In this document: positions 3,852-16,100 of the stretch, piece after piece
Position numbering within the stretch: position 1 is the first letter of the stretch
Layout: each line of letters starts with the position of its first letter
Source: Octopus sinensis
Lineage: Eukaryota
Assembly: GCF_006345805.1 (NCBI RefSeq)
Contig: NW_021824252.1
Location: 1-19,433, forward strand
Length of the DNA stretch: 19,433 bases
Direction of reading: 5' to 3'
The notes under the pieces: generated by a model
What the model saw: only the letters and a program-made list of their open reading frames with translations
The model's database searches: none
What the model was told of the DNA's origin: nothing
Program-made: the position numbers and the translations under genes

Positions 3852-3890
<39 letters not shown>

Positions 3891-4051
3891 AAGGGCTTCT
3901 TTCAATTTCTGCCTGCCAAATACAGTCACTGTACTTTGGTCGGCCTGAGGCTATAGTAGAAGACACTTGCCCTAAGTGCTACGGAGTGGGACTGAACCCA
4001 GAACCATGTGGTCGGGAAACAACTTTTTTACCACACAGCCATGCCTACTCC
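3643..4051 (-). mobile_element. Full-length SINE family A, with internal (CA)n
   Basis: Reverse complement of 1176-1603 (TTACTTGTTTCAGTCATT...GTGGGACTGAACCC...ACCACACAGCCA). Confidence 0.9.
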
Positions 4052-7925: not shown

Positions 7926-8109
7926 TATATATATATATATATATATATATTACATACATATATATATAACTTATAAATAAGGGAAAAAAAAAAATTTTAA
8001 TGCCAAATATGCCGAAAATTGGAGATATTGTCCATTACCATATAATTTATCACAATACGCACGCTACTCGAAAAAAAAAGCCGACAGAAATTTCTAAAAA
8101 ATTCCATTA

Positions 8110-8177
8110 TTACCATATCGGACCGATTTCAGGGTTAGTTCGTAAGAACCCTCCTTCGTCAGTGATAAATGTGGCAA
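8110..8177 (-). ncRNA. Type I hammerhead ribozyme (mirror copy, one G shorter in stem II)
   Basis: Minus strand: TTGCCA CATT TATCA CTGACGA AGGAGGGTTCTTACGAACTAACCCT GAAA TCGG TC CGATA TGGTAA. Confidence 0.7.
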
Positions 8178-8203
8178 AGAAATAAAGTATTTCATTTATT
8201 TCT

Positions 8204-8272
8204 TTACCACATTTATCACTGACGAAGGGAGGGTTCTTACGAACTAACCCTGAAATCGGTCCGATATGGTAA
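8204..8272 (+). ncRNA. Type I hammerhead ribozyme, minimal stem III
   Basis: CTGACGA 8219-8225. Stem II AGGG/CCCT plus GTTC/GAAC. GAAA 8252-8255, near-palindromic TCGG, cleavage triplet GTC 8259-8261. Stem I TATC/GATA plus TTACCA/TGGTAA with a CATT bulge, and an A.C mismatch next to the core. Confidence 0.8.
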
Positions 8273-8701
8273 TAATGGAATTTTTTAGAAATTTCTGTCG
8301 GCTTTTTTTTTCGAGTAGCGTGCGTATTGTGATAAATTATATGGTAATGGACAATATGTCCAATTTTCGGCATATTTGGCACTAGAAATTTTTTCGTTTG
8401 CTCTTATTTATAAGTTGTTTATAATTTTAACCGTTAAAGGTATTTTTTAATATGCTGGCCATTGATAAAATTTTTTTTTTTCGAAATATTTATATATAAA
8501 TATTTTAAAATATATATATATTTTAATATATATAATATATATACGACAGGCTTCTTTCAGTTTCTGTCTACCACATCCATTCACAAGGCTTTGGTCGGCC
8601 CGAGGCTATAATAAAAGACACTTAACCAATGTGCCATGCAATGGGACTGAGCCCAAAACCATGTGGTTGGGAAGCAAGCTTCTTACCACACAGCCACACC
8701 T

Positions 8702-8845: not shown

Positions 8846-9164
8846 TATATAATTACATTAATTTTTTTTATATACATCGAATGGCTGTGGGGGCCCAGGT
8901 GAGAAAAATAGGTTTCAAATGAGTTGATAGGCAAAAAATGATTGGGAACATCTGATACAGGGTCAGTGATAAGAGCAAATATAGTCCTTGGGCCTGTTGT
9001 TATTTAGTGCCGGGTCCAAACTGGTCCAACAAATTGCGAGCATTCATTGTATAAATGTAATCTTTCCTTCCCCCCACCTTCTCTGTTTCCCTCTCTTTTT
9101 TGAAGAGTGCGTTTACGTGTGCATATATATTCTTTATCTTTTACTCATTTTACTTCGAGCTCCT

Positions 9165-9308
9165 TGCAGTTTCCGTCTACCAGATCAACTCACAAAGTTA
9201 TCGCCGGTCCGAGGCTATAGCAGTAGACACTTGCCCAAGTTGCCACGCCGTTGGTTTGTACTGGAGCCATGCGCTCGGGAAACAAATTCCTTACCACACA
9301 CTCAAGCC
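9165..9308 (-). mobile_element. Degenerate 5' half of SINE family A
   Basis: CAGTTTCCGTCTACC..CTCACAA..GAGGCTATAGCAGTAGACACTTGCCCAAG..TTACCACAC. Confidence 0.8.
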
Positions 9309-10601: not shown

Positions 10602-10752
10602 TAAAGTAGATGTAACATTTTCAGGCTTCCAGTGACAATGGCCACAGGCCATAATGCTCCATTTAACCATTTCTGATGCTACTGGATTTTAATCTCCAAC
10701 TCTGGCATGAAACCGTTTCGTAATTTAGCTATTGTCATGCTCCATGAACTCG

Positions 10753-10826
<74 letters not shown>

Positions 10827-10977
10827 TACGAGTCAGGGAGCATGACAATAGCTAAATTACGAAAAGTTTCATGCCAGAGTTGGAGATTAAATCCAGTAGC
10901 CATCAGAAATGGTTAAATGGAGCATTATGGCCTGTGGCCATTGTCACTGGAAGCCTGAAAATGTTACATCTACTTTA
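10602..10977. repeat. ~153-bp inverted repeat (10602-10755 / 10826-10977) with a (TA)n spacer; right copy continues as unique sequence to ~11220
   Basis: TAAAGTAGATGTAACATTTTCAGG...CTCGTAA versus TTACGAG...CCTGAAAATGTTACATCTACTTTA, with a few indels and substitutions. Confidence 0.92.
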
Positions 10978-14239: not shown

Positions 14240-14549
14240 ATTAAGAAATTCGCTTTGAAACCACATGGTTTCAACTTCAGTTTCACTGCGCGGAACCTAA
14301 TGCAAGTTTACTATAGCCTCAGGCCTAGTAATGCCTCATGAGTTTGGTAGAGGAAAACTGAAAGAAGTCTGTTGTATAAATAAATATGTACACACACACA
14401 CGACGGGCTTCTTTCAGTTTCTGTCTACCAAATCAACTCACAAGGTTTTGGTCGGCCCGAGGTTATAGTAGAAGACAAGGTACCACGCAGTGGGACTGAA
14501 CCCGGAACCATGTGGCTGGGAAGCAATATTCTTACCTCACAGCCACGCG
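14240..14549. mobile_element. Two convergent 5' halves of SINE family A (+ strand ~14240-14376, degenerate; - strand 14400-14549)
   Basis: AACCACATGGTT..CTATAGCCTCAGGCC..AACTGAAAGAAGTCTGT versus CGACGGGCTTCTTTCAGTTT..GTGGGACTGAACCCGGAACCATGTGG. Confidence 0.8.
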
Positions 14550-14765
14550 ATATATATATATATACATATATATATTCATATATATATATACATATATATA
14601 TATATTCATATATATATACGTAAATATAAGAGAGTTACCGTTAAGTGGTTAACTCTAGTGCTACAAATAGCTCCTTATTCTAGTATAGCCACCGAAGTTG
14701 TTTCCACAAAAGAAATAACATTACCTTCAACGTAAGGAAAGCGAAATACAACGAAAAGATAGATT

Positions 14766-14843
14766 AATGCTGAACAATTGTTTCTTTATTAATATAATAT
14801 GCAATTATACTCACATATTTATCTATAAGTCATCTGTAGCATT
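14766..14843 (-). ncRNA. Variant type I hammerhead-like motif, copy 1
   Basis: Minus strand: AATGCTA CAGATGA CTTAT..AATATG..CATATT..ATAAA GAAAC AATT GTT CAGCATT. Stem I AATGCT/AGCATT, palindromic stem III ACAATTGT. The core reads CAGAUGA rather than CUGAUGA. Confidence 0.55.
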
Positions 14844-15244
14844 TGTCCTCGATACAATTTATCAGACCCTCACGGGCGATAAATACCCATGCGGTCTGAT
14901 CGATTGCATACATAGTTGTGATTTAGCCTCTCCGCCAAAAGCATGCTAAGACTTAGTGGAAGCTAATACTGCATATAATATTTACTGCAGCATATTAAAT
15001 TTATAAATTCATAAATGAGGTTGAAAAATTTAATAATACCATCAGTTTAACACTAAGTGGCCTAGCACATAAAAACCAGGGAGACAGTACAAATTTATAC
15101 GTAAATATAAGAGAGTTACCGTTAAGTGGTTAACTCTAGTGCTAGAAATAGCTCCTTATTCTGGTATAGCCACCGAAGTTGTTTCCACAAAAGAAATAAC
15201 ATTACCTTCAACGTAAGGAAAGCGATACAACGAAAAGATAGATT

Positions 15245-15322
15245 AATGCCGAACAATTGTTTCTTTATTAATATAATATGCAATTATACTCACATATTTA
15301 TCTATAAGTCATCTGTAGCATT
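15245..15322 (-). ncRNA. Variant type I hammerhead-like motif, copy 2
   Basis: As copy 1, but the stem I 3' strand is CGGCATT (U-A to U.G, pairing preserved). Confidence 0.55.
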
Positions 15323-15419
15323 TGTCCTCGATACAATTTATCAGACCCTCACGGGCGATAAATACCCATGCGGTCTGATATGTATGTATGTATGTATGTA
15401 TATATATATATCTATATAT

Positions 15420-15489
<70 letters not shown>

Positions 15490-15682: not shown

Positions 15683-16100
15683 GGCGTAGGAGTGGCTGTG
15701 TAGTAAGTAGCTTGCTTACGAACCACATGGTTCCGGGTTCAGTCCCACTGCGTGGCACCTTGGGCAAGTGTCTTCTACTATAGCCTCGGGCCGACCAAAG
15801 CCTTGTGAGTGGATTTGGTAGACGGAAACTGAAAGAAGCCCGTCGTATATATGTATATATATATACGTGTGTGTGTTTGTGTGTCTGAGTTTGTCCCCCT
15901 AACATTGCTTGACAACCGATGCTGGTGTGTTTACGTCCCCGTAACTTAGCGGTTCGGCAAAAAGAGACCGATAGAATAAGTACTGGGCTTACAAAAGAAT
16001 AAGTCCCGGGGTCGAGTTGCTCGATTAAAAAAAAAAGGCGGTGCTCCAGCATGGCCGCAGACAAATGACTGAAACAAGTAAAAGAGTAAAAGATTAAAGA
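15683..16100 (+). mobile_element. Full-length, young-looking SINE family A
   Basis: GGCGTAGGAGTGGCTGTG..GGTTCAGTCCC..CCTTGGGCAAGTG..GACTGAAACAAGTAAAAGAGTAAAAGA; highly similar to 1176-1603. Confidence 0.92.

What the first reader, a model, noticed from the sequence alone, without database searches (positions are those of the whole stretch)
14615..15379. Retrozyme-like 1.6-mer with a non-canonical CAGAUGA hammerhead core in both repeats
Two ~285-bp near-identical direct repeats each hold, on the minus strand, AATGCTA-CAGATGA-stem II-GAAAC-AATT-GTT-C(A/G)GCATT. Stem III is a palindrome (ACAATTGT), as in minimal hammerheads that cleave as dimers. The one substitution inside the motif keeps stem I pairing. 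Cleavage at both sites would release a 479-nt monomer (15251 to 14773) able to circularise. The U4-to-A core change is either a natural variant or an inactivating mutation that predates the duplication.
Basis: partly seen in the sequence, partly recalled or inferred. Interest (0 to 1): 0.8.

Follow-up and report, generated by a model that had tools for sequence, protein, structure and literature searches.

The report
Decayed copy of a Penelope-type retrozyme
This is one likely broken copy of a small non-coding jumping element with a self-cutting RNA motif, found a few hundred times in this animal genome; its odd catalytic core occurs in this subfamily at this one locus only and is likely decay rather than a new ribozyme type.

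Summary
In detail: two 98.6%-identical ~285-bp repeats 479 nt apart, each with a minus-strand type I hammerhead-like motif. The element is one copy of a (TA)n-targeted, 5'-truncated, often inverted family, the architecture of non-autonomous Penelope-like elements (non-LTR retrozymes). Of 231 exact family motifs in the genome, 184 have canonical CTGATGA, 42 CCGATGA, 4 CAGATGA (2 here) and 1 CGGATGA. CAGAUGA is therefore sporadic, not a consensus. The family's stems covary, and many canonical copies are predicted to fold as dimeric hammerheads. A young autonomous PLE with the same target is the likely mobiliser, but no terminal-repeat homology was found. The more interesting side result is that U4C cores amplified in two separate clades, and intact paralogues are predicted to pair with this copy's cut site. 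Cleavage may therefore be dispensable or supplied in trans. No cleavage, circle or expression was shown.

The parts
14615..15379 (-). Whole insertion, 1.6 units of a ~480-495-nt non-coding repeat unit (non-LTR retrozyme / non-autonomous Penelope-like family)
15096..15379 (-). 5' direct repeat (unit positions 1-284)
14901..15095 (-). Rest of the unit between the repeats; found in paralogues as part of the same permuted unit
14615..14900 (-). 3' direct repeat, ending at the family's first fixed 3' end (unit position ~287) in (TA)n
15245..15322 (-). Hammerhead motif 1: stem I, core CAGATGA (15315-15309), long stem II, GAAA, palindromic stem III, GUU triplet; predicted cut between 15252 and 15251
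14766..14843 (-). Hammerhead motif 2, same lesions; predicted cut between 14773 and 14772
15314..15316 (-). Private ACA in place of family GCT/GCC: G2.1A (15316) and position-4 A (15314)
14835..14837 (-). Same private ACA in the second repeat
15252..15261 (-). Stem III palindrome AACAATTGTT (second copy 14773-14782); substrate half, intact
14773..15251 (-). Cut-to-cut interval, 479 nt; a monomer only if both sites are cleaved (not shown)
15340..15379 (-). Stable hairpin upstream of the ribozyme (-23.3 kcal/mol for 45 nt); the insertion's 5' end falls at its base; second copy 14861-14900
14626..14631 (-). TCTTAT motif just before the (TA)n tail, also at both 3' ends of the autonomous PLE family
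14550..14618 (.). (TA)n target microsatellite, 3' side
15380..15489 (.). (TA)n/(TATG)n microsatellite, 5' side; no target-site duplication can be read

Best explanation
This is one copy of a family of non-coding, hammerhead-bearing repeats that was likely inserted into a (TA)n tract by a Penelope-like reverse transcriptase/endonuclease, and its two ribozyme cores are likely inactive on their own. Shown: the family, its fixed 3' ends in (TA)n, variable 5' truncation, inversions, more-than-unit copies, covarying stems, and the privacy of the ACA change. Inferred: a family RNA was copied by target-primed reverse transcription from an internal AT-rich point for 1.6 unit lengths, on a circle or a tandem transcript. 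The template already carried G2.1A and A4, so both repeats received them, and each repeat later gained two changes of its own. Predicted: ACA pairs with UGU of stem III and closes the core. Intact family members would cleave as dimers through the palindromic stem III.
For: Core counts 184 CTG / 42 CCG / 4 CAG / 1 CGG of 231 (CTG by subtraction). With the subfamily's flanks required, CAG occurs only in this window: 2 hits plus 1 unrelated chance hit, against 73 CTG and 12 CCG. In 60 loci, 89 of 103 collinear runs end at unit position 280-292 or 370-392; 31 of 60 loci hold both orientations; 31 of 103 runs are >=500 nt; 5' starts are scattered. This matches the PLE pattern in PMC8557442 (passages). 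No long open frame in the unit. Covariation: 26 cells with both sides changed against 8.3 shuffled (0/500), 5 pairs, 96% paired against 31-61% when slid. Repeats of one locus share private changes at 0.275% (direct) and 0.547% (inverted) against 0.019% between loci (Fisher p 4e-8 for direct). Folding: window ACA-UGU pairs P 0.89-0.98. The dimeric hammerhead pairing (three diagnostic pairs all >0.5) forms in 23 of 35 distinct CTGATGA motifs and 0 of 2 window motifs. Mutations in the CUGA turn gave low activity in a deep scan of a type III hammerhead (PMC9901934, passages). A young PLE with an 811-aa frame (RVT_1 E 2e-7; GIY-YIG weak, E 0.067; CX4CX2C linker) has the same target and two 3' ends.
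Against: No cleavage assay. U4C, another position-4 change, is reported to keep enough activity in vivo for a viroid (PMC3088659), so position 4 tolerates something. No autonomous element homologous to the unit was found: none in 30 loci of the young PLE beyond one chance neighbour, and none linked in 20 divergent relatives. The mobiliser is therefore inferred from shared target and ends only. In whole-transcript folding, the cis double hammerhead was <=0.12 for canonical loci as well as for the window, so folding is a weak guide. The count of pairs with both-side changes alone was not above shuffles (118/500), and related sequences inflate such scores. Gene conversion between the repeats could also have spread ACA.
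Confidence: 0.8

Rival explanations
1. Cheater lineage: core-defective units (U4C clades and this copy) keep an intact substrate half and are cut in trans by intact paralogue RNAs pairing through the palindromic stem III. They would then circularise and retrotranspose.
For: Both private lesions lie in the enzyme half; the substrate half is family-typical. In predicted heterodimers, canonical L026 and L041 cores engage both window sites (P 0.61-0.68, 0.66-0.82, 0.71-0.87). U4C makes up 42 of 231 motifs and amplified in two separate clades (99/95 and 97/82; one clade rejected, p-AU 1.8e-31). Both repeats share ACA, as expected from one template copied more than once.
Against: Only 2 of the 7 partners tested engaged both window sites (L002 engaged one; L010, L019, L045 and L072 did not pass all three pairs). 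It needs co-expression, which was not shown. Uncleaved tandem transcripts explain the same copies without any cut. The U4C loci of the sister subfamily were hand-picked for that core (7 of the 20 regions).
Confidence: 0.15
2. Cleavage is dispensable: the family retrotransposes from uncleaved read-through or tandem transcripts, and the ribozyme is decaying (GUA to GUU, C10.1-A11.1, U4C, then A4). This is compatible with the best explanation and addresses the family rather than the locus.
For: GUU in 61 of 71 and C at 10.1 in 26 of 71 copies; U4C amplified twice. Only 1 of 103 runs starts and 1 ends within 120-140 around the cut site. Naiad PLEs thrive without hammerheads (PMC8557442). 8 of 9 Xenopus retrozyme dimers did not cleave in vitro (bioRxiv 10.64898/2026.07.22.740005).
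Against: Compensatory changes in stems I and II across subfamilies, and a re-paired stem I in an ~80%-identical sister subfamily, argue for selection on the fold. One subclade within the U4C clade is back to CTGATGA with a compensated stem I. A circle would also leave no ends at the cut site.
Confidence: 0.35
3. CAGAUGA is an active natural core variant.
For: Present in both repeats; the window pair groups with a clade in which position 4 had already changed (97/92; 99/95); natural core variants with low activity exist (PMC3088659 section 8).
Against: 3 loci of about 225, each in a different subfamily, none amplified. It is accompanied by G2.1A and an alternative core-closing helix. Not seen in any public contig covering those positions in the 7 runs laid (contigs drop rare variants, so this is weak).
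Confidence: 0.05
4. Assembly duplication, or a local tandem duplication of a single inserted repeat.
For: Small unplaced contig (the window is the whole of C723); no raw reads available; no allelic copy of either flank in the assembly.
Against: The repeats differ at 4 places. The spacer is family sequence in the same permuted order seen at many loci; 50 of 103 runs cross the unit junction.
Confidence: 0.05

Closest known systems
Metazoan non-LTR retrozymes (Cervera and de la Pena 2020, PMC7229834; passages read)
   Same: Non-coding, low-GC tandem unit with a type I hammerhead; dimer-type stem III; no LTR, PBS or PPT seen.
   Different: Unit of ~480-495 nt against ~170-400 nt there. Mostly dispersed 5'-truncated and inverted copies in (TA)n rather than long arrays. 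Long stem II and GUU triplet. No circle or cleavage shown, and this copy's core is mutated.
Retrozymes as non-autonomous PLE derivatives (bioRxiv 10.64898/2026.07.22.740005; parts 1-3 of 5 read, supplements closed)
   Same: Co-occurrence with autonomous PLEs; unit length within their 51-972-bp range.
   Different: They show homology to PLE pLTRs in Xenopus; no homologous pLTR was found here. Their survey covers vertebrates, three insects and one coral. By their definition (complete motif in consecutive units) this copy is not an active retrozyme.
Endonuclease-positive Penelope-like elements (Neptune-type linker) and their pLTR hammerheads (PMC4209133 parts 1-2 of 4; PMC8557442 passages)
   Same: Partial tandems, inverted 5'-truncated copies, two 3' ends, microsatellite targeting, palindromic stem III.
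   Different: No RT/GIY-YIG frame in this family. The second 3' end is ~100 nt further on, not 30-40 nt. The ribozyme has a long stem II and lacks the G10.1-C11.1 pair.
U4C viroid hammerhead variant (as cited in PMC3088659, passages and section 8)
   Same: Position-4 change retained in nature.
   Different: There it is a replicating viroid with reduced activity. Here U4C is amplified in retrotransposed copies, and the window has A plus a stem I lesion.

Membership tests
Non-LTR retrozyme | Head-to-tail repeats of a few hundred bp, non-coding, low GC | tested here: met
   479-nt period; up to 2.6 units at C20; no long frame; GC 0.28-0.34
Non-LTR retrozyme | Type I hammerhead in each unit (family level) | tested here: met
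   184 of 231 motifs canonical; covarying stems
Non-LTR retrozyme | Intact catalytic core in this copy | tested here: not met
   A at position 4, A2.1-C1.1 mismatch, C10.1-A11.1 mismatch in both repeats
Non-LTR retrozyme | Self-cleavage in vitro | not testable with these tools
   folding predictions only
Non-LTR retrozyme | Expressed as linear and circular monomer RNA | tested here: inconclusive
   no holder on record as RNA; only contigs of runs guessed to be RNA
Non-LTR retrozyme | Target-site duplication | tested here: inconclusive
   both ends lie in (TA)n; no empty allele in the assembly
Non-autonomous Penelope-like element | Fixed 3' ends, 5' truncation, partial tandems, inverted copies, microsatellite target | tested here: met
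   89 of 103 runs, 31 of 60 loci
Non-autonomous Penelope-like element | Homology to the pLTR of an autonomous PLE | tested here: inconclusive
   none found with one PLE family or around 20 relatives; other PLE families among 17,277 candidate hits not examined
Autonomous PLE | RT + GIY-YIG open frame | tested here: not met
   six-frame translation of the element
Minimal (dimer-dependent) PLE hammerhead | Short palindromic stem III, unstable as monomer | tested here: met
   monomer stem III P<=0.06 in 6 of 6 motifs tested; dimer pairing in 23 of 35 canonical motifs
Minimal (dimer-dependent) PLE hammerhead | G10.1-C11.1 pair and 7-8-bp stem II | tested here: not met
   U-A or C-A at that position and ~15-bp stem II

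The most novel reading that the evidence does not exclude
Core-defective retrozyme lineages (two amplified U4C clades, and this doubly broken copy) spread as cheaters: their RNAs are cut in trans by intact paralogues through the palindromic stem III, circularise, and are copied more than once round by a Penelope reverse transcriptase.
Probability: 0.15. Interest if true: 0.7.

Novelty: new member of a known kind. Interest (0 to 1): 0.3.

Why it matters
The locus itself is a decayed repeat copy. The family is useful because the role of hammerheads in Penelope-like retrotransposition is described as unclear (PMC8557442). This genome offers a natural series in one family: GUA and GUU triplets, U4, U4C and A4 cores, and paired or mismatched stem II base, each with a record of how many insertions it produced. 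Measuring cleavage across that series, alone and in mixed dimers, would test directly whether cleavage is needed, dispensable or shared in trans.

Tried and rejected
Rfam scan: no hammerhead hit, only microsatellite/hairpin noise. Template jump at the cleavage site: all 4 differences between the window repeats lie downstream of the cut (p 0.09 alone), but across 27 direct pairs the rates were 18/799 upstream against 77/2471 downstream, Fisher p 0.23, so not supported. PLEs next to L047 and L067 as parents: they have their own short hammerheads and no homology to the unit, so likely co-targeting of (TA)n. Empty allele: none in the assembly. L031 CAGATGA hit: unrelated sequence. Expression: no RNA holder listed. 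In runs guessed to be RNA, three contigs of two studies stop at 14774-14775, 1-2 nt from the predicted cut, but at least six listed contigs cross it and polymorphic branch points (14773, ~14802) can explain the stops, so this is no evidence. Cis double-hammerhead folding in whole transcripts did not separate window from canonical loci. Earlier scan findings: none by sequence or words. Literature: searches for hammerhead/Penelope/octopus and octopus/Penelope/ribozyme listed no description of this family (listings only, open-licence library). 'Octopus' is a recalled guess from the flanking SINEs and is untested. No U4A activity figure was found. A 2017 paper on dimeric PLE hammerheads is recalled only and was not held. 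Supplements of the 2026 preprint could not be seen, and those of the other papers were not read.

Full report
Observation. The two repeats (14615-14900, 15096-15379) differ by three substitutions and a 2-nt indel and are 479 nt apart. Each carries on the minus strand AATGCTA-CAGATGA, a long hairpin, GAAAC-AATT-GTT and C(A/G)GCATT. Both ends lie in TA-rich microsatellites. Rfam found no hammerhead. The window is a whole 19-kb contig of a 2.7-Gb genome.

The family. A DNA search gave 1,117 candidates, of which 40 were scored at mostly 85-95% identity. With the subfamily's flanks required, the genome holds 73 CTGATGA, 12 CCGATGA and 3 CAGATGA matches; two of the latter are this window and the third is unrelated sequence. 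A wider pattern gave 231 motifs against 0 in the reversed control: 42 CCG, 4 CAG, 1 CGG and, by subtraction, 184 CTG. A few of the 184 are ATGATGA copies matched in a shifted register. The two other CAG motifs are single loci in other subfamilies. These are exact-match counts and therefore lower bounds.

The ribozyme. In 65 aligned motifs (53 distinct; 4 of 69 near-duplicate rows dropped), the fold has stem I AATGCTG/CAGCATT, a 15-pair stem II and a 3-pair palindromic stem III. It is 96% paired, with 26 doubly changed cells against 8.3 in shuffles (0/500) and far above slid controls. The number of covarying pairs alone (5) was not above shuffles. The cleavage triplet is GUU in 61 of 71 copies and GUA in 8. 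The window differs from all other sampled loci by G2.1A with A at position 4, and has a C-A mismatch at the base of stem II that 24 of 69 other copies share. The new ACA is predicted to pair with UGU of stem III at P 0.89-0.98. Monomer stem III is unstable in all six motifs tested. The dimeric hammerhead pairing forms in 23 of 35 distinct CTGATGA motifs, 0 of 8 CCGATGA motifs and 0 of 2 window motifs. Whole-transcript folding did not favour the cis double hammerhead for any of three loci, so these predictions are indicative only. Published data say CUGA-turn mutants have low activity (PMC9901934, passages), while U4C lowers activity but allows viroid infectivity (PMC3088659, passages and section 8).

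How it moved. Across 60 de-duplicated loci, 89 of 103 collinear runs end at one of two positions (42 at 280-292, 47 at 370-392), 56 of those 89 with at least 10 TA in the next 30 nt. 5' ends are scattered, 31 loci contain inverted copies, 50 runs cross the unit junction and 31 reach 500 nt or more. This is the insertion pattern described for Penelope-like elements (PMC8557442, passages). The unit encodes no protein, which fits non-LTR retrozymes (PMC7229834, passages) and the proposal that they are non-autonomous PLE derivatives (bioRxiv 10.64898/2026.07.22.740005, parts 1-3 of 5). Repeats within a locus share private changes 14-29 times more often than copies at different loci and differ about 6-7 times less at common polymorphisms (two block duplications left out). 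This points to one template per insertion. It cannot separate a circle from a tandem transcript, and gene conversion is not excluded.

The likely mobiliser. A young PLE family (150 scored hits at 93-100%, 17,277 candidates) has 811-aa frames with RT, a CX4CX2C linker and a weakly scoring C-terminal GIY-YIG domain. It inserts in (TA)n with two alternative 3' ends, each after TCTTAT. It shares no pLTR homology with the unit, and no linked frame was found around 20 more distant relatives. Its role is inferred, and its clade was not tested by phylogeny.

Position of this copy. The two window repeats form a clade (100/92) inside a 97/92 group dominated by U4C copies. In a second tree they are its basal branch (99/95), so a C-to-A path is likely but not shown. 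U4C amplified in this group and again in a sister subfamily of ~80% identity; one origin is rejected (p-AU 1.8e-31), although reversions also contribute to that value and the sister loci were picked for their core. Both window lesions are in the enzyme half. Two of seven partners tested are predicted to engage both window cut sites, which keeps trans cleavage open as the most novel reading.

Public data. No holder is on record as RNA and the best DNA holder has 34% of the words. No contig in the seven runs laid showed the window's allele where those positions were covered, which is weak because contigs drop rare variants. There is no allelic site in the assembly.

Verdict. A real feature and a new member of a known kind. 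CAGAUGA is most likely decay in one copy (confidence 0.8). Interest 0.3, carried mainly by the family's natural series of core variants.

Noticed in passing
L113:3370-3420 and L083-L112 (G000 autonomous PLE family): The young autonomous PLE carries a minimal hammerhead with the U3-A8 core covariation (TTGAAAA) and a CCGG palindrome, predicted to fold as a dimer. U3-A8 is already described (PMC4209133, PMC3088659).
   Followed up: partly
L139-L144, L147, L152: Sister subfamily at ~80% identity with a re-paired stem I (AACCTCTG/CAGGGTT) and many near-identical U4C copies; about two thirds of the 42 CCG motifs.
   Followed up: partly
L128-L135: A further family with the same GAAACAATTGTAC end and canonical core but no alignable flanks to this unit, also ending in (TA)n; no PLE frame linked.
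   Followed up: partly
L070:1336-1582 and L007: Repeats within one locus differ at several subfamily-diagnostic sites (L070 has one CCG and one CTG core), suggesting two templates or recombination in one insertion.
   Followed up: no
window 15340-15379 and 14861-14900: Hairpin upstream of the ribozyme with apparent compensatory changes between subfamilies (ATCAGACC/GGTCTGAT here, ATTGGACC/GGTCTAAT in L047); function unknown.
   Followed up: partly
L067:1445-1600: A family copy stops 7 nt after the predicted cut site and abuts, in opposite orientation, the 3' UTR of an older PLE.
   Followed up: partly
window 7988-8394 and 10602-10977: Long near-perfect inverted repeats (167 nt at 98%; 77 nt at 100% around a TA tract), possibly foldback or inverted PLE-type insertions.
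   Followed up: no
window 14345-14545, 15683-15878 and about 1181-1321, 3856-4051, 8537-8701, 9151-9261: Several copies of a very abundant SINE-like repeat; the two nearest appear to point away from the element, so neither is an evident promoter for it.
   Followed up: no
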